DNA of 64,000 nt from Trypanosoma brucei (GCA_000002445.1 AE017150.2:896001-960000); one strand, 5' to 3'. Counted from the stretch's first letter, positions 4,415 through 61,295 are shown. The notes: generated by a model from the letters alone, not told the origin. Made by a program: numbers and translations.

Positions 4415-4633
4415 CGGCCAGTGATTCAATCGGTTCGTCCGGAACATTAAGTGGCCTTGGAGATGAAATCCTTTACTTGCCTCGGAAGCGACGCAAATCT
4501 CTCACTATAGTTGGGGAGAAATAGCCCTCGCCCCTCCGGCGTCCAAGCTTGCACGCGGAAGTACCCTAAGGGTGACGCTACCTAATCATAGAGGGACAAC
4601 GCATCACAAGAACTTCGAACTGCGGAAAGATAA

Positions 4634-9492: not shown

Positions 9493-9748
9493 ATTATAAG
9501 ATTCATCCGTGCGTGTTGTATAATTATTGATTGTTTTATGTTTGTAATTGGTTATTTGTTGCTTGTTTCTTATATTGCTCTTTTATTTGCTTCGTTGATA
9601 TGCTCAAATATATTCTTTTACATGTTTGTAGTGTAGTGTAGTTGAAGGAAAGGGTCCTAGTTTGTACCTGAGTATTGTGTTACTCTTTTTTATATATGGG
9701 AAGGAATTGCCAATGCTTATATCTGCCTCCTTTGTGTCTTACCAGCGC

Positions 9749-10378: not shown

Positions 10379-10512
10379 GAAACACGCTATCACGTAGTCG
10401 GACATTTTTTCATAGTGTAGTTTTTTATAGTTATTTCCACTTTGAAAAAAAAACATTGGTCACTTATTGCAGTTGCAGAGTAAGTGGTATTTGACAGATA
10501 CCTGCTGTTTTA

Positions 10513-46560: not shown

Positions 46561-46616
46561 TTCTATTGTCACTGTTGCATTTCCCCTTTACTGACACGCT
46601 CTTCCCTCTTTCCCGC
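46561..46616 (+). promoter_or_regulatory. polypyrimidine tract upstream of each array ORF, a candidate trans-splicing signal repeated in every unit
   Basis: ttccccttta(c)tgacacgctcttccctctttcccgc lies 45-60 nt upstream of each ATG (46660, 48594, 50522, 52441, 54366, 56306, 58246, 60186). Confidence 0.45.
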
Positions 46617-46659
46617 ATATGTGTGTATTTGATAAACTCATAAGGAAGCAACACTGACA

Positions 46660-47763
46660 ATGAGCATGGACACCCGTATGGTGAATTTTGGTTTTACGCG
46701 TGCTGCTCTCCTGTGCGGTCTTTTATTATTGCTAACTGCCGTGTGTCCGCTGCATGTGACTGCTGCTGATAATGGACGTGTGATCGTTAATGTTAAATCC
46801 TATTTTTCAATGGACAATTTTGCTTTTGCTCATCGAGGCAATTACTTCGTAAGCTACAAAAATGCTGCGGCATATTGTGGCGACAATGGTGCTGTGCTTC
46901 CTGCCGATCAAACGGAGGCGGCGCACCAAAGTTTGCAGAGCGCAATAAAGCGTGTAATTACGGGTTCGGATGCTTTCAGCTACCTTGGTGGAGATGCTGT
47001 GTACAGTAGTGGCGAAGCAATTGAAGCTGATAAGCGTTGTAAGCCTGGAGACGCGGCATCTTCCCGCTATTGTGTGTATCGTTGGAATAAGGGATTGTTT
47101 GCAAAGGCTTTGCCTGATGGTCAGGGGGTGGCGTTCTGGCGTGGTTCATATGTCAAATACGGTGGTGCGGCCTCAATGAATGGTTACCCATCCTTTTGGG
47201 GTAGTGAATATCCCAAGCGTGGTCAGTTGTATACCCTTTCATGGTATCATACAGGAGATGATGTGACTACCTGGTATGATGGAAAAGATATGTCAGGACG
47301 CATAAAGTGGGCGAGTGATAATCCCGATACAAAAACTGAAAACTACGTTATCTTATGTGAAGTCCACGATTCTATCAGCACGACGACAACCACAACAACT
47401 ACAACTACGACAACAACTACCACTACAACTACAGCTGCACCTGCCTCAGGCGAAGTACCGGAACCAACTGTGACAAAGGATGAAGAAGTTACTGTGACAA
47501 CTGTGTCATTGGAAGAGAGAAGTAATTGGCACATTATTCTCATAGCTCTAATTTCTGTTGTTTCCCTCATTGTGTTGCTACTTTTCCTTTTACGTTGGTT
47601 TTGTGATTATGATGTTAAAAAGGAGATCATTCCCATGACGCTGCGTGAAGTTGTTGGAGAGCCGTTGTTTGTCCTGGAGCCAACACCTTTTGTTCCCCCA
47701 GAGGGTTTTGCTGCTCCTCCCTTAGCCCTGCAATATTATAACCAAATGAGAACCAGTGAATAA
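46660..47763 (+). CDS. array copy 1: type I membrane protein with signal peptide, C-type-lectin-like domain, ~18-Thr stalk, TM helix and a 54-aa cytoplasmic tail
   Basis: MSMDTRMVNFGFTRAALLCGLLLLLTAVCPLHVTAAD (signal). CTLD-like blocks (A.YC..NGAVLPADQTEAAHQSL; AFSYLGGD; YCVYRWNKG; YPSFWGSEYP; YVILCEV; 4 Cys). Poly-Thr. TM segment WHIILIALISVVSLIVLLLFLL. Tail RWFCDYDVKKEIIPMTLREVVGEPLFVLEPTPFVPPEGFAAPPLALQYYNQMRTSE. Confidence 0.8.
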   Translation: MSMDTRMVNFGFTRAALLCGLLLLLTAVCPLHVTAADNGRVIVNVKSYFSMDNFAFAHRGNYFVSYKNAAAYCGDNGAVLPADQTEAAHQSLQSAIKRVITGSDAFSYLGGDAVYSSGEAIEADKRCKPGDAASSRYCVYRWNKGLFAKALPDGQGVAFWRGSYVKYGGAASMNGYPSFWGSEYPKRGQLYTLSWYHTGDDVTTWYDGKDMSGRIKWASDNPDTKTENYVILCEVHDSISTTTTTTTTTTTTTTTTTTAAPASGEVPEPTVTKDEEVTVTTVSLEERSNWHIILIALISVVSLIVLLLFLLRWFCDYDVKKEIIPMTLREVVGEPLFVLEPTPFVPPEGFAAPPLALQYYNQMRTSE

Positions 47764-48593
47764 TATTAGCGTCACATCGTGTATCACATGGGTGGTGGTT
47801 GAGTGATGTTTAGGATCAAGTGGGGTAATGAATACTGTACCGCTTTCATCCTACGTTACGGACCGTCACAATTTCTAGCTTCGTGTATTGTTTCACTTCC
47901 TATTATTACTTTCAGTAGTGCTCAATACTTCATTGTTTCATATAATTATTACTTTTATGTTCCTAATATTAACGGTCTCCTTGTACCATGTTGGCTCTGC
48001 GAGGGACTTCCGATGTGTGGCATCACTTCCCTCCGACCACATCATTGTTCTTTTAGTGTGTGACCCATTGAACCATCTTTACTGTTTGATGTCCCATTGT
48101 TTCGTTGTTGTTAGTGTTGATTATTTATTTCGTGTGTGGGTGTCATGTTTAGTTCGCGTTATTTCATGTTTTACTTCCATGTATATGTGGGAGGCTTGTA
48201 GGTCCTCCCTGTTACGTGTGATGTATTGCTATACGTGTAACTTGCAGCACTTAATTATTTTAAAAACCTGTACGACGCTGTGTTAAACGAGAGTTCCATA
48301 GTGTTCAATCCCTGCGTTATAGTTGGTCCATTATGATAATAAATGTTTTGAGTACCTGTGTCTCACTAACCAATTTGTTGGGATATGTGATATGGCTGCT
48401 CTCTTCCATTATTATTTGTGTTATCCTTTTCATATTTCTTGTTTATTATCCTCGAGTGTATGTGTGATTATTTGATATCTTGTGTAACTCCTTTTTCTAT
48501 TGTCACTGTTGCATTTCCCCTTTACTCACACGCTCTTCCCTCTTTCCCGCATATGTGTGTATTTGATAGACTCATAAGGAAGCAACACTGACA

Positions 48594-49691
48594 ATGAGCA
48601 TGGACACCCGTATGGTGAATTTTGGTTTTACGCGTGCTGCTCTCCTGTGCGGTCTTTTATTATTGCTAACTGCCGTGTGTCCGCTGCATGTGACTGCTGC
48701 TGATGGTGATAATGGACGTGTGATTGTTAATGTGAAGGAGTATTTCTCCATGCCTAATTATGCATTTATTCGAAGAAGAAAGTATATGGTTGATCACGAA
48801 AGCACCAATCGTTACTGCGTGTATTTTGGTGCCGAAGTTGCTGCCGATCAAACGGAGGCGGCACACCAAAGTTTGCAGGATGCTATGAAGCGTGTAATTA
48901 CGGGTTCGGATGCTTTCAGCTACCTTGGTGGAGATGCTGTGTACAGTAGTGGCGAAGCAATTGAAGCTGATAAGCGTTGTAAGCCTGGAGACGCGGCATC
49001 TTCCCGCTATTGTGTGTATCGTTGGAATAAGGGATTGTTTGCAAAGGCTTTGCCTGATGGTCACGGGGTGGCGTTCTGGCATGGTTCATATGTCAAATAC
49101 GACGGTGCGGCCTCAATGAATGGTTACCCATCCTTTTGGGGTAGTGAATATCCCAAGCGTGGTCAGTTGTATACCCTTTCATGGTATCATACAGGAGATA
49201 ATTCGACTACCTGGTATGATGCTGATGGGGTGTCAGGCACTATTCGTTGGACAAGTCGAAACTTTGACACGAAGTCTCAGGATTACGTTATTGTTTGTGA
49301 AGTTCAAAGATATGTTACTGTGGCAGCTGATAACTACACAACAACTACCACTACAACTACAGCTGCACCTGCCTCAGGCGAAGTACCGGAACCAACTGTA
49401 ACAAAGGATGAAGAAGTTACTGTGACAACTGTGTCATTGGAAGAGAGAAGTAATTGGCACATTATTCTCATAGCTCTAATTTCTGTTGTTTCCCTCATTG
49501 TGTTGCTGCTTTTCCTTTTACGTTGGTTCTGTGATTATGATGTTAAAAAGGAGATCATTCCCATGACGCTGCGTGAAGTTGTTGGAGAGCCGTTGTTTGT
49601 CCTGGAGCCAACACCTTTTGTTCCCCCAGAGGGTTTTGCTGCTCCTCCCTTAGCCCTGCAATATTATAACCAAATGAGAACCAGTGAATAA
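48594..49691 (+). CDS. array copy 2 (divergent patches 1 and 3; only 8 Thr in the stalk)
   Basis: Same conserved N- and C-termini. Its private patch 1 is KEYFSMPNYAFIRRRKYMVDHESTNRYCVYFGAEV. Patch 3 (GDNSTTWYDADGVSGTIRWTSRNFDTKSQDYV) is shared with copy 3. Confidence 0.8.
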   Translation: MSMDTRMVNFGFTRAALLCGLLLLLTAVCPLHVTAADGDNGRVIVNVKEYFSMPNYAFIRRRKYMVDHESTNRYCVYFGAEVAADQTEAAHQSLQDAMKRVITGSDAFSYLGGDAVYSSGEAIEADKRCKPGDAASSRYCVYRWNKGLFAKALPDGHGVAFWHGSYVKYDGAASMNGYPSFWGSEYPKRGQLYTLSWYHTGDNSTTWYDADGVSGTIRWTSRNFDTKSQDYVIVCEVQRYVTVAADNYTTTTTTTTAAPASGEVPEPTVTKDEEVTVTTVSLEERSNWHIILIALISVVSLIVLLLFLLRWFCDYDVKKEIIPMTLREVVGEPLFVLEPTPFVPPEGFAAPPLALQYYNQMRTSE

Positions 49692-50521
49692 TATTAGCGT
49701 CACATCGTGTATCACATGGGTGGTGGTTGAGTGATGTTTAGGATCAAGTGGAGTAATGAATACTGTACCGCTTTCATCCTACGTTACGGACCGTCACAAT
49801 TTCTAGCTTCGTGTATTGTTTCACTTCCTATTATTACTTTCAGTAGTGCTCAATACTTCATTGTTTCATATAATTATTACTTTTATGTTCCTAATATTAA
49901 CGGTCTCCTTGTACCATGTTGGCTCTGCGAGGGACTTCCGATGTGTGGCATCACTTCCCTCCGACCACATCATTGTTCTTTTAGTGTGTGACCCATTGAA
50001 CCATCTTTACTGTTTGATGTCCCATTGTTTCGTTGTTGTTAGTGTTGATTATTTATTTCGTGTGTGGGTGTCATGTTTAGTTCGCGTTATTTCATGTTTT
50101 ACTTCCATGTATATGTGGGAGGCTTGTAGGTCCTCCCTGTTACGTGTGATGTATTGCTATACGTGTAACTTGCAGCACTTAATTATTTTAATAGCTTATA
50201 TGAGGTTACATTAAACGAGAGTTCCATAGTGTTCGGTATCTGCGTTATAGTTCATCCATTATGATAATAAATGTTTTGAGTACCTGTGTCTCACTAACCA
50301 ATTTGTTGGGATATGTGATATGGCTGCTCTCTTCCATTATTATTTGTGTTATCCTTTTCATATTTCTTGTTTATTATCCTCGAGTGTATGTGTGATTATT
50401 TGATATCTTGTGTAACTCCTTTTTCTATTGTCACTGTTGCATTTCCCCTTTACTCACACGCTCTTCCCTCTTTCCCGCATATGTCTGTATTTGATAGACT
50501 CATAAGGAAGCAACACTGACA

Positions 50522-51610
50522 ATGAGCATGGACACCCGTATGGTGAATTTTGGTTTTACGCGTGCTGCTCTCCTGTGTGGTATTTTATTATTGCTAACTG
50601 CCGTGTGTCCGCTGCATGTGACTGCTGCTGATGGTGATGGACGCGTGATTGTTAATGTGAAGACGTATTTCTCTGTTCCCACATATGCGTTCATTAGGAA
50701 AGGTAGATATGCTGTTAATTACGAAAATGCTAATTATTATTGCGTCTTCTTTGGTGCTGTGCTTCCTGCCGATCAAACGGAGGCGGCGCACCAAAGTTTG
50801 CAGGATGCTATGAAGCGTGTAATTACGGGTTCGGATGCTTTCAGCTACCTTGGTGGAGATGCTGTGTACAGTAGTGGCGAAGCAATTGAAGCTGATAAGC
50901 GTTGTAAGCCTGGAGACATTGCATCTTCCCGCTATTGTGTGTATCGTTGGAATAAGGGATTGTTTGCAAAGGCTTTGCCTGATGGCTGGGGGGTGGCGTT
51001 CTGGCATGGTTCATATGTCAAATACGACGGTGCGGCCTCAATGAATGGTTACCCATCCTTTTGGGGTAGTGAATATCCCAAGCGTGGTCAGTTGTATACC
51101 CTTTCATGGTATCATACAGGAGATAATTCGACTACCTGGTATGATGCTGATGGGGTGTCAGGCACTATTCGTTGGACAAGTCGAAACTTTGACACGAAGT
51201 CTCAGGATTACGTAGTCACCTGTGAGGTTCAAACTGATATTATCACGACGACAACCACAACAACTACAACTACAACTACAGCTGCACCTGCCTCAGGCGA
51301 AGTACCGGAACCAACTGTGACAAAGGATGAAGAAGTTACCGTGACAACTGTGTCATTGGAAGAGAGAAGTAATTGGCACATTATTCTCATAGCTCTAATT
51401 TCTGTTGTTTCCCTTATTGTGTTGCTACTTTTCCTTTTACGTTGGTTCTGTGATTATGATGTTAAAAAGGAGATCATTCCCATGACGCTGCGTGAAGTTG
51501 TTGGAGAGCCGTTGTTTGTCCTGGAGCCAACACCTTTTGCTCCCCCAGAGGGTTTTGCTGCTCCTCCCTTAGCCCTGCAATATTATAACCAAATGAGAAC
51601 CAGTGAATAA
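50522..51610 (+). CDS. array copy 3
   Basis: Private patch 1 is KTYFSVPTYAFIRKGRYAVNYENANYYCVFFGAV. Patch 3 is shared with copy 2. The tail has a single V->A change (TPFAPPEG). Confidence 0.8.
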   Translation: MSMDTRMVNFGFTRAALLCGILLLLTAVCPLHVTAADGDGRVIVNVKTYFSVPTYAFIRKGRYAVNYENANYYCVFFGAVLPADQTEAAHQSLQDAMKRVITGSDAFSYLGGDAVYSSGEAIEADKRCKPGDIASSRYCVYRWNKGLFAKALPDGWGVAFWHGSYVKYDGAASMNGYPSFWGSEYPKRGQLYTLSWYHTGDNSTTWYDADGVSGTIRWTSRNFDTKSQDYVVTCEVQTDIITTTTTTTTTTTTAAPASGEVPEPTVTKDEEVTVTTVSLEERSNWHIILIALISVVSLIVLLLFLLRWFCDYDVKKEIIPMTLREVVGEPLFVLEPTPFAPPEGFAAPPLALQYYNQMRTSE

Positions 51611-52440
51611 TATTAGCGTCACATCGTGTATCACATGGGTGGTGGTTGAGTGATGTTTAGGATCAAGTGGAGTAATGAATACTGTACCGCTTTCATCCTA
51701 CGTTACGGACCGTCACAATTTCTAGCTTCGTGTATTGTTTCACTTCCTACTATTACTTTCAGTAGTGCTCAATACTTCATTGTTTCATATAATTATTACT
51801 TTTATGTTCCTAATATTAACGGTCTCCTTGTACCATGTTGGCTCTGCGAGGGACTTCCGATGTGTGGCATCACTTCCCTCCGACCACATCATTGTTCTTT
51901 TAGTGTGTGACCCATTGAACCATCTTTACTGTTTGATGTCCCATTGTTTCGTTGTTGTTAGTGTTGATTATTTATTTCGTGTGTGGGTGTCACGTTTAGT
52001 TCGCGTTACTTCATGTTTTACTTCCATGTATATGTGGGAGGCTTGTAGGTCCTCCCTGTTACGTGTGATGTATTGCTATACGTGTAACTTGCAGCACTTA
52101 ATTATTTTAAAAACCTGTACGACGCTGTGTTAAACGAGAGTTCCATAGTGTTCAATCCCTGCGTTATAGTTGGTCCATTATGATAATAAATGTTTTCAGT
52201 ACCTGTGTCTCACTAACCAATTTGTTGGGATATGTGATATGGCTGCTCTCTTCCATTATTATTTGTGTTATCCTTTTCATATTTCTTGTTTATTATCCTC
52301 GAGTGTATGTGTGATTATTTGATATCTTGTGTAACTCCTTTTTCTATTGTCACTGTTGCATTTCCCCTTTACTCACACGCTCTTCCCTCTTTCCCGCATA
52401 TGTGTGTATTTGATAGACTCATAAGGAAACAACACTGACA

Positions 52441-53535
52441 ATGAGCATGGACACCCGTATGGTGAATTTTGGTTTTACGCGTGCTGCTCTCCTGTGCGGT
52501 ATTTTATTATTGCTAACTGCCGTGTGTTCGCTGCATGTGACTGCTGCTGCTGATGGTGATGATGGACGCGTGATTGTTAATGTTAAATCCTATTTTTCGA
52601 TGGTGTACCGTGCTTTTTTCCGCAATAAAACTTACTTCGTTAGTTATGAAAACGCTGAAGCATATTGTGTTGAAAACGGTGCTGTGCTTCCTGCCGATCA
52701 AACGGAGGCGGCGCACCAAAGTTTGCAGGATGCAATGAAGCGTGTATACTCCATTTTTGTTGCTTTCAGCTACCTTGGTGGAGATGCTGTGTACAGTAGT
52801 AGCGGAGTAATTGAGTTTAATAAACGATGTAATGCTGGAGACATTGCATCTTCCCGCTATTGTGTGTATCGTTGGAATAAGGGATTGTTTGCAAAGGTTT
52901 TGCCTGATGGTCACGGGGTGGCGTTCTGGCATGGTTCATATGTCAAATACGACGGTGCGGCCTCAATGAATGGTTACCCATCTTTTTGGGGTAGTGAATA
53001 TCCCAAGCGTGGTCAGTTGTATACCCTTTCATGGTACCATGAACACGAAGATGTGACTACCTGGTATGATGCTGAAAGTGTAGCTGGACAGCTGGTGGCA
53101 GCAAGCAACAATCCCGAGACCACAAACAAGAACTACGTTATCTTATGTGAAGTCCATGATTCTATCAGCACGACGACAACCACAACAACTACCACTACAA
53201 CTACAGCTGCACCTGCCTCAGGCGAAGTGCCGGAACCAACTGTGACAAAGGATGAAGAAGTTACTGTGACAACTGTGTCATTGGAAGAGAGAAGTAATTG
53301 GCACATTATTCTCATAGCTCTAATTTCTGTTGTTTCCCTCATTGTGTTGCTACTTTTCCTTTTACGTTGGTTTTGTGATTATGATGTTAAAAAGGAGATC
53401 ATTCCCATGACGCTGCGTGAAGTTGTTGGAGAGCCGTTGTTTGTCCTGGAGCCAACACCTTTTGTTCCCCCAGAGGGTTTTGATGCTCCTCCCTTAGCCC
53501 TGCAATATTATAACCAAATGAGAACCAGTGAATAA
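52441..53535 (+). CDS. array copy 4 (the most divergent ectodomain)
   Basis: Its patch 1 is unique (KSYFSMVYRAFFRNKTYFVSYENAEAYCVENGAV). Its patch 2 is unique (KRVYSIFVAFSY...SSGVIEFNKRCNAGD). Its patch 3 is unique (EHEDVTTWYDAESVAGQLVAASNNPETTNKNYV). Confidence 0.8.
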   Translation: MSMDTRMVNFGFTRAALLCGILLLLTAVCSLHVTAAADGDDGRVIVNVKSYFSMVYRAFFRNKTYFVSYENAEAYCVENGAVLPADQTEAAHQSLQDAMKRVYSIFVAFSYLGGDAVYSSSGVIEFNKRCNAGDIASSRYCVYRWNKGLFAKVLPDGHGVAFWHGSYVKYDGAASMNGYPSFWGSEYPKRGQLYTLSWYHEHEDVTTWYDAESVAGQLVAASNNPETTNKNYVILCEVHDSISTTTTTTTTTTTTAAPASGEVPEPTVTKDEEVTVTTVSLEERSNWHIILIALISVVSLIVLLLFLLRWFCDYDVKKEIIPMTLREVVGEPLFVLEPTPFVPPEGFDAPPLALQYYNQMRTSE

Positions 53536-54365
53536 TATTAGCGTCACATCGTGTATCACATGGGTGGTGGTTGAGTGATGTTTAGGATCAAGTGGAGTAA
53601 TGAATACTGTACCGCTTTCATCCTACGTTACGGACCGTCACAATTTCTAGCTTCGTGTATTGTTTCACTTCCTACTATTACTTTCAGTAGTGCTCAATAC
53701 TTCATTGTTTCATATAATTATTACTTTTATGTTCCTAATATTAACGGTCTCCTTGTACCATGTTGGCTCTGCGAGGGACTTCCGATGTGTGGCATCACTT
53801 CCCTCCGACCACATCATTGTTCTTTTAGTGTGTGACCCATTGAACCATCTTTACTGTTTGATGTCCCATTGTTTCGTTGTTGTTAGTGTTGATTATTTAT
53901 TTCGTGTGTGGGTGTCATGTTTAGTTCGCGTTATTTCATGTTTTACTTCCATGTATATGTGGGAGGCTTGTAGGTCCTCCCTGTTACGTGTGATGTATTG
54001 CTATACGTGTAACTTGCAGCACTTAATTATTTTAATAGCTTATATGAGGTTACATTAAACGAGAGTTCCATAGTGTTCAATCCCTGCGTTATAGTTCATC
54101 CATTATGATAATAAATGTTTTGAGTACCTGTGTCTCACTAACCAATTTGTTGGGATATGTGATATGGCTGCTCTCTTCCATTATTATTTGTGTTATCCTT
54201 TTCATATTTCTTGTTTATTATCCTCGAGTGTATGTGTGATTATTTGATATCTTGTGTAACTCCTTTTTCTATTGTCACTGTTGCATTTCCCCTTTACTCA
54301 CACGCTCTTCCCTCTTTCCCGCATATGTGTGTATTTGATAGACTCATAAGGAAACAACACTGACA

Positions 54366-55475
54366 ATGAGCATGGACACCCGTATGGTGAATTTTGGTTT
54401 TACGCGTGCTGCTCTCCTGTGCGGTATTTTATTATTGCTAACTGCCGTGTGTTCGCTGCATGTGACTGCTGCTGATGGTGATGATGGACGCGTGATTGTT
54501 AATGTGAAGGAGTATTTCTCCATGCCTAATCGTGCATTTATTCGTGATGGGGAGTACCATGTAAGTTACTACAATGCTAACGCATATTGTGTCGACAATG
54601 GTGCTGTGCTTCCTGCCGATCAAACGGAGGCGGCACACCAAAGTTTGCAGGATGCAATGAAGCGTGTAACTAATTCTTTTGTTGCTTTCAGCTACCTTGG
54701 TGGAGATGCTGTGTACAGTAGTGGCGGAGTAATTGAAGCTGATAAGCGTTGTAAGCCTGGAGACATTGCATCTTCACGCTATTGTGTGTACCGTTGGAAT
54801 AAGGGATTGTTTGCAAAGGCTTTGCCTGATGGCTGGGGGGTGGCGTTCTGGCATGGTTCATATGTCAAATACGGTGGTGCGGCCTCAATGAATGGTTACC
54901 CATCCTTTTGGGGTAGTGAATATCCCAAGCGTGGTCAGTTGTATACCCTTTCATGGTATCATAAAGATTATGATGTGACTACCTGGTATGATGGAAAAGA
55001 TATGTCAGGACGCATAAAGTGGACGAGTAAAAACACTGCTACAAGAACCGAAAACTACGTTATCTTATGTGAAGTCCACGATTCTATCAGCACGACGACA
55101 ACCACAACAACTACAACTACGACAACAACTACCACTACAACTACAGCTGCACCTGCCTCAGGCGAAGTGCCGGAACCAACTGTGACAAAGGATGAAGAAG
55201 TTACTGTGACAACTGTGTCATTGGAAGAGAGAAGTAATTGGCACATTATTCTCATAGCTCTAATTTCTGTTGTTTCCCTCATTGTGTTGCTGCTTTTCCT
55301 TTTACGTTGGTTTTGTGATTATGATGTTAAAAAGGAGATCATTCCCATGACGCTGCGTGAAGTTGTTGGAGAGCCGTTGTTTGTCCTGGAGCCAACACCT
55401 TTTGTTCCCCCAGAGGGTTTTGCTGCTCCTCCCTTAGCCCTGCAATATTATAACCAAATGAGAACCAGTGAATAA
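54366..55475 (+). CDS. array copy 5
   Basis: Patch 1 is KEYFSMPNRAFIRDGEYHVSYYNANAYCVDNGAV, shared with copies 6 and 8. Patch 2 is private (KRVTNSFVAFSY). Patch 3 is KDYDVTTWYDGKDMSGRIKWTSKNTATRTENYV. Confidence 0.8.
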   Translation: MSMDTRMVNFGFTRAALLCGILLLLTAVCSLHVTAADGDDGRVIVNVKEYFSMPNRAFIRDGEYHVSYYNANAYCVDNGAVLPADQTEAAHQSLQDAMKRVTNSFVAFSYLGGDAVYSSGGVIEADKRCKPGDIASSRYCVYRWNKGLFAKALPDGWGVAFWHGSYVKYGGAASMNGYPSFWGSEYPKRGQLYTLSWYHKDYDVTTWYDGKDMSGRIKWTSKNTATRTENYVILCEVHDSISTTTTTTTTTTTTTTTTTTAAPASGEVPEPTVTKDEEVTVTTVSLEERSNWHIILIALISVVSLIVLLLFLLRWFCDYDVKKEIIPMTLREVVGEPLFVLEPTPFVPPEGFAAPPLALQYYNQMRTSE

Positions 55476-56305
55476 TATTAGCGTCACATCGTGTATCACA
55501 TGGGTGGTGGTTGAGTGATGTTTAGGATCAAGTGGAGTAATGAATACTGTACCGCTTTCATCCTACGTTACGGACCGTCACAATTTCTAGCTTCGTGTAT
55601 TGTTTCACTTCCTATTATTACTTTCAGTAGTGCTCAATACTTCATTGTTTCATATAATTATTACTTTTATGTTCCTAATATTAACGGTCTCCTTGTACCA
55701 TGTTGGCTCTGCGAGGGACTTCCGATGTGTGGCATCACTTCCCTCCGACCACATCATTGTTCTTTTAGTGTGTGACCCATTGAACCATCTTTACTGTTTG
55801 ATGTCCCATTGTTTCGTTGTTGTTAGTGTTGATTATTTATTTCGTGTGTGGGTGTCATGTTTAGTTCGCGTTATTTCATGTTTTACTTCCATGTATATGT
55901 GGGAGGCTTGTAGGTCCTCCCTGTTACGTGTGATGTATTGCTATACGTGTAACTTGCAGCACTTAATTATTTTAATAGCTTATATGAGGTTACATTAAAC
56001 GAGAGTTCCATAGTGTTCAATCCCTGCGTTATAGTTCATCCATTATGATAATAAATGTTTTGAGTACCTGTGTCTCACTAACCAATTTGTTGGGATATGT
56101 GATATGGCTGCTCTCTTCCATTATTATTTGTGTTATCCTTTTCATATTTCTTGTTTATTATCCTCGAGTGTATGTGTGATTATTTGATATCTTGTGTAAC
56201 TCCTTTTTCTATTGTCACTGTTGCATTTCCCCTTTACTCACACGCTCTTCCCTCTTTCCCGCATATGTGTGTATTTGATAGACTCATAAGGAAACAACAC
56301 TGACA

Positions 56306-57415
56306 ATGAGCATGGACACCCGTATGGTGAATTTTGGTTTTACGCGTGCTGCTCTCCTGTGCGGTATTTTATTATTGCTAACTGCCGTGTGTTCGCTGCA
56401 TGTGACTGCTGCTGATGGTGATGATGGACGCGTGATTGTTAATGTGAAGGAGTATTTCTCCATGCCTAATCGTGCATTTATTCGTGATGGGGAGTACCAT
56501 GTAAGTTACTACAATGCTAACGCATATTGTGTCGACAATGGTGCTGTGCTTCCTGCCGATCAAACGGAGGCGGCGCACCAAATTTTGCAGGATGCTATGA
56601 AGCGTGTAATTGCGGCTTCGGATGCTTTCAGCTACCTTGGTGGAGATGCTGTGTACAGTAGTGGCGGGGCCATTGTGGCTAATAAGCGTTGTAAGCCTGG
56701 AGACATTGCATCTTCACGCTATTGTGTGTATCGTTGGAATAAGGGATTGTTTGCAAAGGCTTTGCCTGATGGCTGGGGGGTGGCGTTCTGGCATGGTTCA
56801 TATGTCAAATACGGTGGTGCGGCCTCAATGAATGGTTACCCATCCTTTTGGGGTAGTGAATATCCCAAGCATGGTCAGTTGTATACCCTTTCATGGTATC
56901 ATAAAGATTATGATGTGACTACCTGGTATGATGGAAAAGATATGTCAGGACGCATAAAGGGGACGAGTAAAAACCCTGCCACAAAGACTGAAAACTACGT
57001 TATCTTATGTGAAGTCCACGATTCTATCAGCACGACGACAACCACAACAACTACAACTACGACAACAACTACCACTACAACTACAGCTGCACCTGCCTCA
57101 GGCGAAGTACCGGAACCAACTGTGACAAAGGATGAAGAAGTTACCGTGACAACTGTGTCATTGGAAGAGAGAAGTAATTGGCACATTATTCTCATAGCTC
57201 TAATTTCTGTTGTTTCCCTTATTGCGTTGCTACTTTTCCTTTTACGTTGGTTTTGTGATTATGATGTTAAAAAGGAGATCATTCCCATGACGCTGCGTGA
57301 AGTTGTTGGAGAGCCGTTGTTTGTCCTGGAGCCAACACCTTTTGTTCCCCCAGAGGGTTTTGCTGCTCCTCCCTTAGCCCTGCAATATTATAACCAAATG
57401 AGAACCAGTGAATAA
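56306..57415 (+). CDS. array copy 6
   Basis: Patch 1 is shared with copies 5 and 8. Patch 2 (ILQDAMKRVIAASDA...GGAIVANKRC) is shared with copy 7. Patch 3 (KGTSKNPATKTENYV) is shared with copy 7. Confidence 0.8.
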   Translation: MSMDTRMVNFGFTRAALLCGILLLLTAVCSLHVTAADGDDGRVIVNVKEYFSMPNRAFIRDGEYHVSYYNANAYCVDNGAVLPADQTEAAHQILQDAMKRVIAASDAFSYLGGDAVYSSGGAIVANKRCKPGDIASSRYCVYRWNKGLFAKALPDGWGVAFWHGSYVKYGGAASMNGYPSFWGSEYPKHGQLYTLSWYHKDYDVTTWYDGKDMSGRIKGTSKNPATKTENYVILCEVHDSISTTTTTTTTTTTTTTTTTTAAPASGEVPEPTVTKDEEVTVTTVSLEERSNWHIILIALISVVSLIALLLFLLRWFCDYDVKKEIIPMTLREVVGEPLFVLEPTPFVPPEGFAAPPLALQYYNQMRTSE

Positions 57416-58245
57416 TATTAGCGTCACATCGTGTATCACATGGGTGGTGGTTGAGTGATGTTTAGGATCAAGTGGAGTAATGAATACTGTACCGCTTTCA
57501 TCCTACGTTACGGACCGTCACAATTTCTAGCTTCGTGTATTGTTTCACTTCCTACTATTACTTTCAGTAGTGCTCAATACTTCATTGTTTCATATAATTA
57601 TTACTTTTATGTTCCTAATATTAACGGTCTCCTTGTACCATGTTGGCTCTGCGAGGGACTTCCGATGTGTGGCATCACTTCCCTCCGACCACATCATTGT
57701 TCTTTTAGTGTGTGACCCATTGAACCATCTTTACTGTTTGATGTCCCATTGTTTCGTTGTTGTTAGTGTTGATTATTTATTTCGTGTGTGGGTGTCATGT
57801 TTAGTTCGCGTTATTTCATGTTTTACTTCCATGTATATGTGGGAGGCTTGTAGGTCCTCCCTGTTACGTGTGATGTATTGCTATACGTGTAACTTGCAGC
57901 ACTTAATTATTTTAATAGCTTATATGAGGTTACATTAAACGAGAGTTCCATAGTGTTCAATCCCTGCGTTATAGTTCATCCATTATGATAATAAATGTTT
58001 TGAGTACCTGTGTCTCACTAACCAATTTGTTGGGATATGTGATATGGCTGCTCTCTTCCATTATTATTTGTGTTATCCTTTTCATATTTCTTGTTTATTA
58101 TCCTCGAGTGTATGTGTGATTATTTGATATCTTGTGTAACTCCTTTTTCTATTGTCACTGTTGCATTTCCCCTTTACTCACACGCTCTTCCCTCTTTCCC
58201 GCATATGTGTGTATTTGATAGACTCATAAGGAAACAACACTGACA

Positions 58246-59355
58246 ATGAGCATGGACACCCGTATGGTGAATTTTGGTTTTACGCGTGCTGCTCTCCTGT
58301 GCGGTCTTTTATTATTGCTAACTGCCGTGTGTCCGCTGCATGTGACTGCTGCTGATGGTGATGATGGACGCGTGATTGTAAATATCAATACTATAATTTC
58401 TATGGTCAATCGTGCATTTATTCGTGATGGGGAGTACCATGTAAGTTACTACAATGCTAACGCATATTGTGTCGACAATGGTGCTGTGCTTCCTGCCGAT
58501 CAAACGGAGGCGGCGCACCAAATTTTGCAGGATGCAATGAAGCGTGTAACTGCGGCTTCGGATGCTTTCAGCTACCTTGGTGGAGATGCTGTGTACAGTA
58601 GTGGCGGGGCCATTGTGGCTAATAAGCGTTGTAAGCCTGGAGACATTGCATCTTCACGCTATTGTGTGTACCGTTGGAATAAGGGATTGTTTGCAAAGGC
58701 TTTGCCTGATGGTCACGGGGTGGCGTTCTGGCATGGTTCATATGTCAAATACATTTTTGCAGGCCCAATGAATGGTTACCCATCCTTTTGGGGTGGCGAA
58801 CATCCCAAGCGTGGTCAGTTGTATACCCTTTCATGGTATCATAAAGATTATGATGTGACTACCTGGTATGATGGAAAAGATATGTCAGGACGCATAAAGG
58901 GGACGAGTAAAAACCCTGCCACAAAGACTGAAAACTACGTTATCTTATGTGAAGTCCACGATTCTATCAGCACGACGACAACCACAACAACTACAACTAC
59001 GACAACAACTACCACTACAACTACAGCTGCACCTGCCTCAGGCGAAGTACCGGAACCAACTGTGACAAAGGATGAAGAAGTTACTGTGACAACTGTGTCA
59101 TTGGAAGAGAGAAGTAATTGGCACATTATTCTCATAGCTCTAATTTCTGTTGTTTCCCTTATTGTGTTGCTACTTTTCCTTTTACGTTGGTTCTGTGATT
59201 ATGATGTTAAAAAGGAGATCATTCCCATGACGCTGCGTGAAGTTGTTGGAGAGCCGTTGTTTGTCCTGGAGCCAACACCTTTTGTTCCCCCAGAGGGTTT
59301 TGCTGCTCCTCCCTTAGCCCTGCAATATTATAACCAAATGAGAACCAGTGAATAA
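58246..59355 (+). CDS. array copy 7 (carries private substitution clusters)
   Basis: Private NINTIISMVN at the start of the ectodomain. Private KYIFAGPMNG and WGGEHP in the otherwise invariant core. Patches 2 and 3 are shared with copy 6. Confidence 0.8.
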   Translation: MSMDTRMVNFGFTRAALLCGLLLLLTAVCPLHVTAADGDDGRVIVNINTIISMVNRAFIRDGEYHVSYYNANAYCVDNGAVLPADQTEAAHQILQDAMKRVTAASDAFSYLGGDAVYSSGGAIVANKRCKPGDIASSRYCVYRWNKGLFAKALPDGHGVAFWHGSYVKYIFAGPMNGYPSFWGGEHPKRGQLYTLSWYHKDYDVTTWYDGKDMSGRIKGTSKNPATKTENYVILCEVHDSISTTTTTTTTTTTTTTTTTTAAPASGEVPEPTVTKDEEVTVTTVSLEERSNWHIILIALISVVSLIVLLLFLLRWFCDYDVKKEIIPMTLREVVGEPLFVLEPTPFVPPEGFAAPPLALQYYNQMRTSE

Positions 59356-60185
59356 TATTAGCGTCACATCGTGTATCACATGGGTGGTGGTTGAGTGATG
59401 TTTAGGATCAAGTGGAGTAATGAATACTGTACCGCTTTCATCCTACGTTACGGACCGTCACAATTTCTAGCTTCGTGTATTGTTTCACTTCCTATTATTA
59501 CTTTCAGTAGTGCTCAATACTTCATTGTTTCATATAATTATTACTTTTATGTTCCTAATATTAACGGTCTCCTTGTACCATGTTGGCTCTGCGAGGGACT
59601 TCCGATGTGTGGCATCACTTCCCTCCGACCACATCATTGTTCTTTTAGTGTGTGACCCATTGAACCATCTTTACTGTTTGATGTCCCATTGTTTCGTTGT
59701 TGTTAGTGTTGATTATTTATTTCGTGTGTGGGTGTCATGTTTAGTTCGCGTTATTTCATGTTTTACTTCCATGTATATGTGGGAGGCTTGTAGGTCCTCC
59801 CTGTTACGTGTGATGTATTGCTATACGTGTAACTTGCAGCACTTAATTATTTTAATAGCTTATATGAGGTTACATTAAACGAGAGTTCCATAGTGTTCAA
59901 TCCCTGCGTTATAGTTCATCCATTATGATAATAAATGTTTTGAGTACCTGTGTCTCACTAACCAATTTGTTGGGATATGTGATATGGCTGCTCTCTTCCA
60001 TTATTATTTGTGTTATCCTTTTCATATTTCTTGTTTATTATCCTCGAGTGTATGTGTGATTATTTGATATCTTGTGTAACTCCTTTTTCTATTGTCACTG
60101 TTGCATTTCCCCTTTACTCACACGCTCTTCCCTCTTTCCCGCATATGTGTGTATTTGATAGACTCATAAGGAAACAACACTGACA

Positions 60186-61295
60186 ATGAGCATGGACACC
60201 CGTATGGTGAATTTTGGTTTTACGCGTGCTGCTCTCCTGTGCGGTATTTTATTATTGCTAACTGCCGTGTGTCCGCTGCATGTGACTGCTGCTGATGGTG
60301 ATGATGGACGCGTGATTGTTAATGTGAAGGAGTATTTCTCCATGCCTAATCGTGCATTTATTCGTGATGGGGAGTACCATGTAAGTTACTACAATGCTAA
60401 CGCATATTGTGTCGACAATGGTGCTGTGCTTCCTGCCGATCAAACGGAGGCGGCGCACCAAAGTTTGCAGAGCGCAATAAAGCGTGTAATTACGGGTTCG
60501 GATGCTTTCAGCTACCTTGGTGGAGATGCTGTGTACAGTAGTGGCGGAGTAATTGAAGCTGATAAGCGTTGTAAGCCTGGAGACGCGGCATCTTCCCGCT
60601 ATTGTGTGTATCGTTGGAATAAGGGATTGTTTGCAAAGGCTTTGCCTGATGGCTGGGGGGTGGCGTTCTGGCGTGGTTCATATGTCAAATACGGTGGTGC
60701 GGCCTCAATGAATGGTTACCCATCCTTTTGGGGTAGTGAATATCCCAAGCGTGGTCAGTTGTATACCCTTTCATGGTATCATAAAGATTATGATGTGACT
60801 ACCTGGTATGATGGAAAAGATATGTCGGGACGCATAAAGTGGGCGAGTGATAATCCCGATACAAAAACTGAAAACTACGTTATCTTATGTGAAGTCCACG
60901 ATTCTATCAGCACGACGACAACCACAACAACTACAACTACGACAACAACTACAACTACAACTACAGCTGCACCTGCCTCAGGCGAAGTACCGGAACCAAC
61001 TGTGACAAAGGATGAAGAAGTTACTGTGACAACTGTGTCATTGGAAGAGAGAAGTAATTGGCACATTATTCTCATAGCTCTAATTTCTGTTGTTTCCCTT
61101 ATTGTGTTGCTACTTTTCCTTTTACGTTGGTTCTGTGATTATGATGTTAAAAAGGAGATCATTCCCATGACGCTGCGTGAAGTTGTTGGAGAGCCGTTGT
61201 TTGTCCTGGAGCCAACACCTTTTGTTCCCCCAGAGGGTTTTGCTGCTCCTCCCTTAGCCCTGCAATATTATAACCAAATGAGAACCAGTGAATAA
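60186..61295 (+). CDS. array copy 8 (a mosaic of copy 5/6-type patch 1 with copy 1-type patches 2 and 3)
   Basis: Patch 1 equals copies 5/6. SLQSAIKRVITGSDA, AFWRGSYVKYGG and KWASDNPDTKTENYV equal copy 1. Confidence 0.8.
   Translation: MSMDTRMVNFGFTRAALLCGILLLLTAVCPLHVTAADGDDGRVIVNVKEYFSMPNRAFIRDGEYHVSYYNANAYCVDNGAVLPADQTEAAHQSLQSAIKRVITGSDAFSYLGGDAVYSSGGVIEADKRCKPGDAASSRYCVYRWNKGLFAKALPDGWGVAFWRGSYVKYGGAASMNGYPSFWGSEYPKRGQLYTLSWYHKDYDVTTWYDGKDMSGRIKWASDNPDTKTENYVILCEVHDSISTTTTTTTTTTTTTTTTTTAAPASGEVPEPTVTKDEEVTVTTVSLEERSNWHIILIALISVVSLIVLLLFLLRWFCDYDVKKEIIPMTLREVVGEPLFVLEPTPFVPPEGFAAPPLALQYYNQMRTSE

What the first reader, a model, noticed from the sequence alone, without database searches (positions are those of the whole stretch)
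46780..60900. Three discrete hypervariable patches are shuffled in a mosaic pattern between copies while everything else (including ~830 bp of non-coding DNA per unit) is homogenised
Copy-to-copy differences are not spread evenly; they are confined to three patches. Patch 1 covers ~aa 45-80 (between RVIVN and GAVLPADQTEAAHQ). Patch 2 covers ~aa 93-125 (KRV... to KRCKPGD). Patch 3 covers ~aa 195-230 (WYH... to NYVILCEV). A few single switch sites lie outside them, such as W/H/Q in DG(W)GVAFW(H/R)G. Patches are exchanged independently. Copy 8 has patch 1 of copies 5/6 but patches 2 and 3 plus the W-R switch of copy 1. Copies 2 and 3 share patch 3 but differ in patch 1. Copies 6 and 7 share patches 2 and 3, and copy 7 has a private patch-1 start. 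Signal peptide, stalk, TM, tail, UTR-like regions and unit junctions are >98% identical. This is the signature of segmental gene conversion combined with diversifying selection on specific surface loops. It is plausibly the ligand-binding face of a lectin fold and is analogous to MASP/TcMUC conserved-ends, variable-centre logic. Here it occurs in a strict tandem array.
Basis: seen in the sequence. Interest (0 to 1): 0.88.

Follow-up and report, generated by a model that had tools for sequence, protein, structure and literature searches.

The report
Mosaic variable patches in IGP40 array
Eight tandem copies of a known Trypanosoma brucei lectin-like membrane protein gene (IGP40) are kept almost identical by recombination, except for a few short segments that hold old, very different sequence versions which are reshuffled between copies; the pattern is real, but there is no sign of positive selection and the array was already known to undergo gene conversion.

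Summary
The region is the 8-copy IGP40 array of T. b. brucei TREU927 chromosome 2 (Tb927.2.5290-5360), which is array "Tb12" of Jackson 2007. In the coding sequence, 77% of variable sites lie in 33% of its length. Nucleotide diversity is 0.32, 0.11 and 0.27 in the three patches, against 0.003 in the spacer. Recombination is strongly supported (PHI z = -10.2; Rmin 25).

The patches are therefore old sequence versions that escape homogenisation and are reshuffled. The same patch types occur in T. b. equiperdum and T. b. gambiense in other combinations (21 combinations in 24 copies; 135 shared polymorphisms and no fixed differences in the patches).

The family, the array and gene conversion in it are published; only the patch-level picture appears to be new.

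The parts
46393..61950 (+). Whole repeated region: 8 tandem units of the IGP40 array (Tb927.2.5290-5360; array Tb12 of Jackson 2007)
   Evidence: Direct-repeat families with spacing of 1,919-1,940 bp. Unit homology starts 267 nt upstream of the first ATG and runs 655 nt past the last stop. The ATG-to-stop span of 14,635 bp equals chr2 942,660-957,295 in PMC1855330.
46660..47763 (+). Copy 1 CDS (367 aa)
   Evidence: ORF; Pfam PF16825 E = 5e-85; both IGP40 qRT-PCR primers match.
48594..49691 (+). Copy 2 CDS (365 aa)
   Evidence: ORF; identical to TREU927 XP_951702.1.
50522..51610 (+). Copy 3 CDS (362 aa)
   Evidence: ORF.
52441..53535 (+). Copy 4 CDS (364 aa)
   Evidence: ORF; PF16825 E = 1.5e-84.
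54366..55475 (+). Copy 5 CDS (369 aa); lectin domain aa 41-237 was modelled
   Evidence: ORF; AlphaFold model pLDDT 93.6.
56306..57415 (+). Copy 6 CDS (369 aa)
   Evidence: ORF.
58246..59355 (+). Copy 7 CDS (369 aa)
   Evidence: ORF; two extra variant tracts that are shared with gambiense copies.
60186..61295 (+). Copy 8 CDS (369 aa)
   Evidence: ORF; mosaic of copy-5-like and copy-1-like tracts.
46789..46899 (+). Patch 1, copy 1 (beta0-beta1-alpha1)
   Evidence: Coordinates; own patch type, shared with equiperdum e1.
46927..47055 (+). Patch 2, copy 1 (end of alpha2, alpha2-beta2 loop, start of long loop)
47251..47373 (+). Patch 3, copy 1 (beta3-beta4 hairpin tip and beta4-beta5 loop)
48729..48839 (+). 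Patch 1, copy 2
   Evidence: type shared with e2 and g2.
48867..48995 (+). Patch 2, copy 2
49191..49313 (+). Patch 3, copy 2
   Evidence: 7 nt differences from copy 3.
50654..50764 (+). Patch 1, copy 3
   Evidence: 36 nt differences from copy 2.
50792..50920 (+). Patch 2, copy 3
51116..51232 (+). Patch 3, copy 3
52579..52689 (+). Patch 1, copy 4
   Evidence: In equiperdum this type (e5) sits with a different patch 3.
52717..52845 (+). Patch 2, copy 4
53041..53163 (+). Patch 3, copy 4
   Evidence: In equiperdum this type (e3) sits with the copy-5 patch 1.
54501..54611 (+). Patch 1, copy 5
   Evidence: identical to copies 6 and 8 (0 differences).
54639..54767 (+). Patch 2, copy 5
54963..55085 (+). 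Patch 3, copy 5
56441..56551 (+). Patch 1, copy 6
56579..56707 (+). Patch 2, copy 6
   Evidence: 2 differences from copy 7.
56903..57025 (+). Patch 3, copy 6
   Evidence: identical to copy 7.
58381..58491 (+). Patch 1, copy 7 (INTIISMVN start)
58519..58647 (+). Patch 2, copy 7
58843..58965 (+). Patch 3, copy 7
60321..60431 (+). Patch 1, copy 8
   Evidence: identical to copies 5 and 6.
60459..60587 (+). Patch 2, copy 8 (copy-1/copy-5 mosaic)
60783..60905 (+). Patch 3, copy 8 (copy-5 start, copy-1 remainder)
48263..48351 (+). Non-coding variable mini-patch in spacer 1; the equivalent segments are 50191-50279, 52110-52198, 54035-54123, 55975-56063, 57915-58003, 59855-59943 and 61794-61882
   Evidence: 2-3 haplotypes, diversity 0.080 against 0.003 in the rest of the spacer; polymorphisms shared with equiperdum.

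Best explanation
This is the IGP40 ('invariant glycoprotein', Fam77, Pfam PF16825) tandem array of T. brucei chromosome 2. It evolves by concerted evolution.

Shown:
- Homologous recombination between the repeats keeps about three quarters of each 1.94-kb unit nearly identical. That covers the signal peptide, the middle of the lectin domain, the stalk flanks, the TM segment, the tail and nearly all of the spacer.
- Three main coding segments, plus a few minor coding segments and one non-coding one, hold old, deeply diverged haplotypes ('patch types'). Their synonymous divergence is 10-15 times that of the flanks.
- The same patch types occur in different combinations in three T. brucei subspecies, so they predate the split of those subspecies.
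- The patches differ from the rest of the domain in age of divergence, not in dN/dS.

Inferred:
- The recombination consists of unequal sister-chromatid or homologue exchange plus short-tract gene conversion.
- The conserved linkers between patches serve as the homology for exchanges, so that patches, and pieces of patches, are recombined into new mosaics.
- The diversity persists because these are the structurally tolerant parts of the lectin-like domain, and once diverged they are poor substrates for homogenising conversion. Selection for functionally different paralogs may reinforce this.
- The outcome is a set of co-transcribed paralogs with a constant scaffold and combinatorially different ectodomain segments.
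For: Identity of the locus:
- PF16825, E = 5e-85.
- Both IGP40 qRT-PCR primers of PMC4497807 hit all 8 copies.
- Copy 2 is identical to XP_951702.1.
- The array span equals the Tb12 coordinates in PMC1855330.

Homogenised flanks against diverged patches:
- Nucleotide diversity is 0.003 in the spacer against 0.32 in P1.
- pS is 0.54 (P1) and 0.43 (P3) against 0.034 in the C-terminal part.

Recombination:
- PHI z = -10.2 and Rmin 25.
- Shared-tract test: in 15 of 28 pairs, 0 of 2,000 permutations matched the longest shared tract.
- Explicit mosaics.
- LD r2 falls from 0.52 at 10 nt or less to 0.08 at 121-250 nt.

Old, shared patch types:
- In the patches, 135 polymorphisms are shared with the equiperdum array and none are fixed. 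All 4 fixed differences lie in the homogenised parts.
- Copy 4's patch 1 and patch 3 are uncoupled in equiperdum copies e5 and e3.
- There are 21 distinct combinations among 24 copies.
- Copy 7's tracts recur in gambiense copies.

No excess of amino-acid change: pN/pS is 0.42-0.71 in the patches and about the same as in the rest of the domain.

Tolerant positions:
- Array-variable sites have higher entropy across the wider family (2.87 against 2.15 bits, p = 4e-8).
- They overlap the sites that vary among T. vivax paralogs (odds ratio 2.8, p = 9e-4).

A non-coding mini-patch behaves in the same way.

Prior literature: Jackson 2007 recorded a gene-conversion event in this array and proposed that less conserved regions 'may rapidly escape conversion'.
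Against: - Whole patches are sometimes copied: patch 1 is identical in copies 5, 6 and 8. So divergence is not an absolute barrier, and without some force that favours diversity the patch types might be expected to be lost.
- pN/pS inside the patches equals that outside. This is not what a simple 'less constrained regions diverge faster' model predicts.
- The equiperdum and gambiense assemblies have frameshifts and gaps.
- The TREU927 assembly may merge two haplotypes.
- The subspecies compared are very close, so sharing between them says the patch types predate a recent split, not that they are ancient in absolute terms.
Confidence: 0.8

Rival explanations
1. One reading: positive diversifying selection on ligand-binding surface loops of the lectin domain drives amino-acid change in the patches, and gene conversion spreads and recombines the variants.
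For: - Variation is concentrated in the ectodomain.
- Patches 2b and 3 are the entry to the long loop, the beta3-beta4 hairpin tip and the long beta4-beta5 loop.
- Three short windows have pN/pS of 1.0-1.6: aa 101-110, 171-180 and 196-205.
- Within patch 1, the family-invariant core residues (F58, V66, C75, G79) are kept.
- Helix alpha1 shows a rough i/i+3/i+4/i+7 pattern of low variability.
- T. congolense homologues are surface-exposed (PMC5349194).
Against: - Region-wide pN/pS is 0.42-0.71 and no higher than in the rest of the domain.
- pS in the patches is as inflated as pN.
- Variable sites are not enriched in loops or in polar residues.
- Patch 1 is beta0-beta1-alpha1, away from the canonical CTLD sugar site.
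- The canonical EPN/QPD and WND motifs are replaced by EYP and WYD, as read from the sequence.
- A non-coding mini-patch shows the same pattern.
- IGP40-HA is in the ER of bloodstream forms, and transcripts peak in the insect stage (PMC4497807, PMC8483307).
Confidence: 0.2
2. Purely neutral escape. After the duplications, the least constrained segments diverged beyond the identity needed for homologous recombination. Mismatch-repair rejection of heteroduplex then shields them from homogenisation, and no selection for diversity is involved.
For: - pN/pS is below 1.
- A non-coding patch is retained as well.
- The patches coincide with positions that are variable across the family.
- Jackson 2007 proposed this in general terms for T. 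brucei arrays.
- The gambiense array is dominated by one patch-1 type, which shows that diversity can be lost.
Against: - Patches are demonstrably converted or duplicated as wholes (0 differences among copies 5, 6 and 8 in P1), so the shield is leaky.
- TREU927 nevertheless keeps 5 or more patch-1 types in 8 copies.
- pN/pS is no higher in the patches than elsewhere in the domain.
Confidence: 0.35
3. Assembly artefact: the mosaics are chimeras created when a 15-kb array of near-identical repeats, or two allelic arrays of a diploid, were assembled.
For: - About 1.35 kb between patch 3 of one copy and patch 1 of the next is nearly identical, so the order of copies is hard to assemble.
- Jackson 2007 notes that homologous chromosomes were not distinguished.
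Against: - Patches 1 to 3 of one gene span only about 580 nt, which is within one Sanger read (my inference), so the combinations within a gene are directly read.
- Two independent assemblies of other subspecies show the same patch types in further combinations.
- The copy number and gene lengths equal those of the published annotation.
Confidence: 0.04
4. Local hypermutation: the patches are mutational hot spots, for example through error-prone repair, rather than old haplotypes.
For: Both pS and pN are raised together in the patches.
Against: - Variation forms a few discrete haplotypes with strong short-range LD (r2 0.52 at 10 nt or less).
- Patch 1 has zero differences among copies 5, 6 and 8.
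- There are 135 polymorphisms shared between subspecies in the patches.
Confidence: 0.04

Closest known systems
T. brucei tandem gene arrays under concerted evolution with allelic gene conversion (Jackson 2007, BMC Evol Biol 7:54; array 12, Tb927.2.5290)
   Same: It is the same locus: chromosome 2, 8 copies of 1,104-1,110 bp, and an identical span. That study reported average Ds 0.156 and Dn 0.078 and one significant conversion event in the CDS. It noted that non-coding regions of arrays are often more conserved, and that less conserved regions may escape conversion.
   Different: That study gave array-wide averages and one event. It did not describe the three discrete patches, the roughly 100-fold range of diversity within a unit, the many exchanges (Rmin 25), or the reshuffling of the same patch types in other subspecies.
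IGP ('invariant glycoprotein') family, subfamily IGP40 (Allison et al. 2014, PMC4497807); also Fam77 of the cell-surface phylome (PMC3605285) and the TcoClecs of T. congolense (PMC5349194)
   Same: Same genes: the paper's IGP40 representative is Tb927.2.5330, and both of its primers match. They are type I membrane proteins with a C-type-lectin-like ectodomain, encoded in tandem arrays.
   Different: The papers describe 85-100% identity within a subfamily and treat the copies as equivalent. The literature I searched does not mention patch-wise variability or recombination (no occurrence of 'gene conversion' or 'recombination').
Cassette-type variation systems with variable blocks between conserved linkers (Neisseria pilE/pilS minicassettes, Borrelia vlsE, mosaic VSG formation). 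This comparison is from my own knowledge and was not tested here.
   Same: Variable blocks are separated by conserved sequence that can guide segmental gene conversion, giving combinatorial mosaics.
   Different: Those systems have silent donors feeding one expression site and are driven by antibody pressure. Here all eight copies are complete ORFs with the same flanks in one polycistronic unit, and there is no evidence of programmed switching or immune exposure.
T. cruzi MASP / TcMUC
   Same: Conserved N- and C-terminal parts, a more variable middle, and a Thr-rich stretch.
   Different: They are not homologous. The Pfam Mucin match is below threshold and covers only the poly-Thr run (E = 0.0018, 18.7 bits against a cutoff of 34.7). 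The anchor is a TM segment, not GPI. Variation is confined to discrete segments of a folded lectin-like domain. The genes form a strict tandem array rather than dispersed families.
Duplicated genes with 'islands of divergence' in a background of gene conversion (the Teshima and Innan models; primate opsin and RH genes; NK-receptor CTLD clusters such as Ly49 and KIR). This comparison is from my own knowledge.
   Same: Conversion homogenises most of the sequence, while short regions stay diverged and are exchanged as blocks.
   Different: In the classical cases the islands are usually attributed to selection at known functional sites. Here no ligand or function is known and dN/dS gives no signal.

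Membership tests
IGP family, IGP40 subfamily (Pfam PF16825 / Fam77) | Significant match to the PF16825 (DUF5075) domain | tested here: met
   E = 5.4e-85 and 1.5e-84, covering the full 173-position profile.
IGP family, IGP40 subfamily (Pfam PF16825 / Fam77) | Identity with the published IGP40 genes on T. brucei chromosome 2 | tested here: met
   The IGP40-RTF and IGP40-RTR primers match all 8 copies exactly. Copy 2 is identical to XP_951702.1 of TREU927. The array span equals the published coordinates.
IGP family, IGP40 subfamily (Pfam PF16825 / Fam77) | Type I membrane topology: signal peptide, ectodomain, one TM segment, short tail | tested here: met
   There is a hydrophobic N-terminus and a single hydrophobic stretch, WHIILIALISVVSLIVLLLFLL. 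This stretch is helix 292-317 in the full-length model, which is of low confidence. No dedicated predictor was run.
IGP family, IGP40 subfamily (Pfam PF16825 / Fam77) | ER localisation and N-glycosylation | not testable with these tools
   Localisation comes from PMC4497807 only. N-X-S/T sequons are present only in copies 2, 3 and 4.
[quoted passage not shown] | Double-loop alpha/beta fold superposable on solved CTLDs | tested here: met
[quoted passage not shown] | Sequence-level membership of Pfam Lectin_C (PF00059) | tested here: not met
   The best match has E = 0.18 and 13 bits against a cutoff of 22.6, and in copy 4 only. PDB sequence hits to CTLDs have E = 0.18-0.7.
[quoted passage not shown] | Ca2+/carbohydrate-binding motifs (EPN or QPD in the long loop; WND in beta4) | tested here: not met
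   Read from the sequence and the secondary-structure map, the equivalent positions read S-E-Y-P and W-Y-D. Sugar binding is therefore unproven.
[quoted passage not shown] | Conserved disulfides alpha1-beta5 and beta3-(beta4-beta5 loop) | tested here: inconclusive
   Four nearly invariant Cys are present (C75, C129, C140, C235). C75 (alpha1) and C235 (beta5) fit the first pair. C129 and C140 lie in the long loop, not at the canonical sites. No coordinates were available to check the bonds.
Tandem arrays evolving in concert with allelic gene conversion (sensu Jackson 2007) | Head-to-tail repeats that include the non-coding spacer, with chimaeric copies supported by recombination tests | tested here: met
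Tandem arrays evolving in concert with allelic gene conversion (sensu Jackson 2007) | Copies within one genome are more alike than positional counterparts in another genome | tested here: inconclusive
   There are only 4 array-wide fixed differences against equiperdum, all outside the patches. The patches show 135 shared polymorphisms. The subspecies are too close for a strong test.
Programmed antigenic-variation cassette systems / MASP-TcMUC-type immune-exposed families | Silent donor copies feeding an expression site, or GPI-anchored immune-exposed products with dN/dS above 1 | tested here: not met
   All 8 copies are intact ORFs with the same flanks. They have a TM anchor. pN/pS is about 0.5. 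Expression peaks in tsetse salivary-gland epimastigotes (PMC8483307).

The most novel reading that the evidence does not exclude
The patch types are a selected, combinatorial repertoire of recognition surfaces on a mucin-like stalk. They are displayed by salivary-gland epimastigotes, the stage that attaches to the tsetse epithelium and in which meiosis and gamete fusion occur. Balancing selection keeps them diverse, for adhesion to varied fly ligands or for self/non-self recognition between mating trypanosomes. The partial patch 1-patch 3 coupling (r2 0.24 at 401-700 nt against 0.08 at intermediate distance) would then reflect co-adapted halves of one binding face.
Probability: 0.12. Interest if true: 0.75.

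Novelty: already known. Interest (0 to 1): 0.3.

Why it matters
The genes, the array and the fact of gene conversion in it are published, so this is not a new kind of system.

What the analysis adds is a sharper picture of a family that was named 'invariant':
- Within one 1.94-kb unit, diversity ranges about 100-fold.
- The variable parts are a small set of old patch types, reshuffled within and between T. brucei subspecies.
- There is no dN/dS signal.

This has three consequences. Studies that treat the IGP40 copies as equivalent, such as one tagged representative or subfamily-wide RNAi, may miss functional differences between copies. Short-read mapping and expression estimates per copy depend almost wholly on these patches. 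The array is also a compact natural case for asking whether islands of divergence in converting duplicates are kept by selection or by a homology barrier.

Tried and rejected
1. Full-length AlphaFold with an 18-sequence alignment gave pLDDT 40 and was unusable. It was replaced by a domain-only model built on 42 family sequences.
2. A second word-indexed protein search with a profile added no deeper relatives.
3. Exact-protein look-ups for TREU927 copies found nothing on record. Only copy 2 is in the protein collection.
4. I tested whether copy 7's private clusters are compensated frameshifts. They are not: other-frame translations do not match, and the clusters are base substitutions.
5. I tested whether patch types were imported from other IGP subfamilies. 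The nearest family representatives outside the IGP40 group are only 35-50% identical in protein.
6. A nearby dispersed copy was checked as a donor. It lies about 100 kb away on the opposite strand in equiperdum. It shares the whole unit at 91.8% identity and has related but not identical tracts. It therefore belongs to the same pool, but direction and ectopic conversion are not shown.
7. The PDB sequence search gave only non-significant CTLD hits, plus a spurious match of the TM region to a designed helical repeat.
8. Model coordinates are not exposed to scripts, so solvent accessibility could not be computed. The proxies I used instead (secondary-structure class and hydropathy) were not significant.

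Full report
**What is there**

Window 46,393-61,950 holds eight head-to-tail units of 1,919-1,940 bp. Each unit has one + strand ORF of 362-369 aa and about 830 bp of spacer. The proteins match Pfam PF16825 ('IGP family C-type lectin domain') at E = 5e-85.

Their closest relatives are T. brucei proteins at 83-93% identity. T. congolense and T. vivax IGP proteins follow at 36-46%.

Several lines identify the locus:
- Copy 2 is identical to TREU927 protein XP_951702.1.
- Both IGP40 qRT-PCR primers of Allison et al. 2014 (PMC4497807) match all eight copies exactly.
- The ATG-to-stop span of 14,635 bp, the copy number of 8 and the gene lengths of 1,104-1,110 bp equal those of array 12 ('Tb927.2.5290', chr2 942,660-957,295) in Jackson 2007 (PMC1855330).

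The window is therefore T. b. brucei TREU927 chromosome 2, and the genes are Tb927.2.5290-5360, the IGP40 subfamily (Fam77 of the cell-surface phylome; PMC3605285, PMC5349194). A trans-sialidase gene lies just upstream.

**Check of the observation**

- Of 224 variable ungapped CDS columns, 173 fall in the three patches, which make up 33% of the CDS.
- The variance of counts per 30-nt bin is 51 against a null mean of 4.9, and 0 of 5,000 permutations reached it.
- Nucleotide diversity among units 1-7 is 0.32 in patch 1, 0.11 in patch 2 and 0.27 in patch 3. It is 0.044 in the middle of the domain, 0.020 at the 5' end, 0.011 in the C-terminal part and 0.003 in the spacer. That is a range of about 100-fold within one unit.

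The stated mosaic relations hold in outline:
- Copies 5, 6 and 8 have identical patch 1.
- Copy 8 is closest to copy 1 in patches 2 and 3.
- Copies 2 and 3 share patch 3 but differ by 36 nt in patch 1.
- Copies 6 and 7 share patches 2 and 3.

Some details need correction:
- Copy 8's patches 2 and 3 are themselves alternations of copy-1-like and copy-5-like tracts, with at least five switches.
- Copy 1 carries Q, not W, at the first switch site.
- There are further small variable segments at aa 157, 163 and 170-186.
- The spacer contains an approximately 90-nt segment with two or three haplotypes, with diversity 0.080.

**Recombination**

- The PHI statistic is 0.261 against a permutation mean of 0.374 (z = -10.2; 0 of 2,000 permutations as low).
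- Of 4,005 pairs of biallelic informative sites, 1,754 show all four gametes.
- The Hudson-Kaplan Rmin is 25. Recurrent mutation at saturated patch sites may inflate that count.
- In a GENECONV-style test, 15 of 28 copy pairs had a longest shared tract that 0 of 2,000 permutations matched.
- With 24 copies from three genomes, r2 falls from 0.52 at 10 nt or less to 0.08 at 121-250 nt.

Copy 7's two private clusters are substitution clusters, not compensated frameshifts.

**Other genomes**

The T. b. equiperdum array (L001) has six units. A 20-kb part of the T. b. gambiense array (L003) has at least 13. The same patch types occur there in other combinations:
- In the window, copy 4 joins its own patch 1 to its own patch 3. 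In equiperdum, e5 has copy 4's patch 1 with the copy-6/7 patch 3, and e3 has copy 5's patch 1 with copy 4's patch 3.
- Copy 7's INTIISMVN and IFAGP...GGEH tracts are both present in g1, g10 and g11. INTIIS occurs alone in g3, g8 and g9.
- Across 24 copies there are 5-10 types per segment and 21 distinct combinations.
- Between the window and equiperdum arrays, the patches hold 135 shared polymorphisms and no fixed difference. The only 4 array-wide fixed differences lie in the homogenised parts.

A dispersed single unit lies about 100 kb away on the opposite strand in equiperdum. It shares the entire unit, spacer included, at 91.8% identity. It has no differences in many conserved 45-nt windows and carries its own patch types. 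TREU927 and gambiense have similar dispersed copies.

**Selection**

By Nei-Gojobori counting on the eight copies:

| Region | pS | pN | pN/pS |
|---|---|---|---|
| Patch 1 | 0.54 | 0.225 | 0.42 |
| Patch 3 | 0.43 | 0.20 | 0.47 |
| Patch 2 | 0.14 | 0.10 | 0.71 |
| C-terminal part | 0.034 | 0.003 | 0.09 |

With 21 in-frame copies from three genomes, pN/pS is 0.49, 0.59 and 0.46 in the three patches against 0.60 in the rest of the domain. Only three 10-codon windows with few changes reach 1.0-1.6.

The patches therefore differ from their surroundings in depth of divergence, not in the ratio of amino-acid to silent change. They are old haplotypes that have escaped homogenisation. Region-wide ratios are conservative and synonymous sites are near saturation, so positive selection at single codons is not excluded. 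It is simply not shown.

**Structure**

A full-length model from a shallow alignment failed, with pLDDT 40. An exhaustive profile search gave about 45 diverse family members. With these, the domain (copy 5, aa 41-237) was modelled at pLDDT 93.6 and pTM 0.90.

On the secondary-structure map:
- Patch 1 is beta0-beta1-alpha1.
- Patch 2a is the end of alpha2 plus the loop before beta2.
- Patch 2b is the entry to the long loop.
- Patch 3a is the tip of the beta3-beta4 hairpin.
- Patch 3b is an extended beta4-beta5 loop.

By general knowledge of the CTLD fold, patch 1 and patch 2a lie away from the Ca2+/sugar site. The motifs that define sugar-binding CTLDs (EPN/QPD and WND) read EYP and WYD here.

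As proxies, variable sites make up 45% of loop, 33% of strand and 39% of helix positions (p = 0.39). Their mean hydropathy is not significantly lower (p = 0.14).

On the other hand:
- The positions that stay invariant inside patch 1 are the family-invariant core residues.
- Array-variable sites have higher entropy in the wider family (2.87 against 2.15 bits, p = 4e-8).
- They overlap the sites that vary among T. vivax paralogs (odds ratio 2.8, p = 9e-4).

So the patches coincide with structurally tolerant parts of the fold, but 'specific surface loops of the ligand-binding face' is not demonstrated.

**Most likely mechanism**

Shown:
- Recombination between repeats.
- Near-identity of about three quarters of the unit, spacer included.
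- Deep, discrete haplotypes in a few segments.
- The same haplotypes in new combinations in other subspecies.
- No excess of amino-acid change.

Inferred:
- Unequal exchange and short-tract gene conversion homogenise the long identical stretches. About 1.35 kb runs from the end of patch 3, through the spacer, to the start of the next patch 1.
- The conserved linkers inside the domain let patches, and parts of patches, be exchanged.
- The diverged segments are homogenised far more slowly, because they are poorer substrates and tolerate change. Selection for different paralogs may reinforce this.

Whole-patch copying does occur, and one array still holds five or more patch-1 types. I therefore cannot decide between a neutral homology barrier (about 0.35) and selection for diversity.

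An assembly artefact is unlikely. Patches 1-3 of one gene span about 580 nt, and two independent assemblies show the same patch types.

**Comparison with what is known**

- Jackson 2007 analysed this very array. It reported Ds 0.156, Dn 0.078 and one significant CDS conversion event between copies 6/7 and 1. It considered and rejected ectopic conversion with nearby copies. It also proposed in general terms that less conserved regions may escape conversion.
- Allison 2014 named the family, reported 85-100% identity within subfamilies, and located HA-tagged IGP40 (Tb927.2.5330, which is copy 5) in the ER of bloodstream forms.
- Telleria 2014 and Naguleswaran 2021 found the array and its two dispersed relatives up-regulated in tsetse salivary glands, mainly in BARP-positive epimastigotes. 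The latter described them as a new poly-threonine membrane family.
- T. congolense homologues (TcoClecs) are surface-exposed.

None of the papers I could search describes the patch architecture. The object, its family and the mechanism are known; the patch-level description is an increment.

The MASP/TcMUC analogy is superficial, and the resemblance to pilS/vls cassette systems is one of layout only. All eight copies are complete, co-oriented ORFs with the same flanks.

**Verdict**

The pattern is real and statistically solid, and it is correctly attributed to segmental recombination. The claim of diversifying selection on ligand-binding loops is not supported. The novelty is low, because this is a known array in a known family with a known mechanism, with a modest descriptive gain.

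Noticed in passing
window 48263-48351 and the equivalent segment of each spacer (50191-50279, 52110-52198, 54035-54123, 55975-56063, 57915-58003, 59855-59943, 61794-61882): A non-coding mini-patch with 2-3 haplotypes. Units 1 and 3 differ from units 2 and 4-7, and unit 8 is mixed. Diversity is 0.080 against 0.003 in the rest of the spacer. The polymorphisms are shared with the equiperdum array. The segment ends at about unit coordinate 1,700, where the unit homology upstream of copy 1 begins (about 1,674).
   Followed up: partly
window 46660-61295 (all eight CDSs): N-X-S/T sequons occur only in copy 2 (NST at aa 203, NYT at 247), copy 3 (NST at 202) and copy 4 (NKT at 62), all inside or next to the patches. 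Copies 1 and 5-8 of this 'glycoprotein' have none. This fits the remark in PMC4497807 that IGP40 (Tb927.2.5330, copy 5) migrates at its core size.
   Followed up: partly
window 47374-47433, 49314-49361, 51233-51280, 53164-53205, 55086-55145, 57026-57085, 58966-59025, 60906-60965: The poly-threonine stalk varies in length between copies. It is shorter in copies 2-4, and copy 2 has a unique VTVAADNY insertion before it. Naguleswaran 2021 predicts O-glycosylation of this stalk.
   Followed up: no
patch 1 against patch 3 in 24 copies (window, L001, L003): LD rises again at long range: r2 is 0.24 at 401-700 nt against 0.08 at 121-250 nt. The rarer patch-1 and patch-3 types tend to stay together (the types of copies 1, 2, 3 and 4). 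This could reflect old lineages or co-adaptation of beta1/alpha1 with beta5 and its loop.
   Followed up: partly
L003 (T. b. gambiense FN554965.1, 690823-711272) and L001 (T. b. equiperdum CM010673.1, 550539-571624): Copy number differs: at least 13 copies in the gambiense stretch (with three 100-N gaps), 6 in equiperdum and 8 in the window. The gambiense copies are dominated by one patch-1 type. Equiperdum copies e1, e2 and e5 carry frameshifts or stops, which may be pseudogenes or long-read errors.
   Followed up: partly
L002 4001-5092 (equiperdum); TREU927 and gambiense proteins P0010-P0012: Dispersed single IGP40-like units lie about 100 kb from the array on the opposite strand. They share the whole unit, spacer included, and have a different C-terminal end (…QMMTGQSY or …YYG/YYD). 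They carry further patch types, and their YAFAAPMNG tract is related to copy 7's YIFAGPMNG.
   Followed up: partly
window 19957-20333: A 42-nt tandem repeat of 9 copies with 97% matches lies inside ORF 19057-21198 (713 aa). In frame it encodes PPPAPTGKTQAPAA nine times.
   Followed up: no
window 1-10500: The only long minus-strand ORF is 1388-3028; all other long ORFs are on the + strand. GC skew changes sign near 4 kb. This looks like a divergent strand-switch region at the start of a polycistronic unit.
   Followed up: no
window 29431-42171: A very long ORF of 4,246 aa on the + strand. It was not examined.
   Followed up: no
window 46000-62000: G+C drops to 0.41-0.42 across the array, against 0.49-0.56 in the 30 kb upstream. 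AT skew is about -0.2, meaning the coding strand is T-rich.
   Followed up: no
literature: Naguleswaran 2021 (PMC8483307) presents these genes as a novel poly-threonine membrane family. That paper contains no occurrence of 'IGP', so it makes no link to IGP40. The two literatures on this array appear unconnected.
   Followed up: partly
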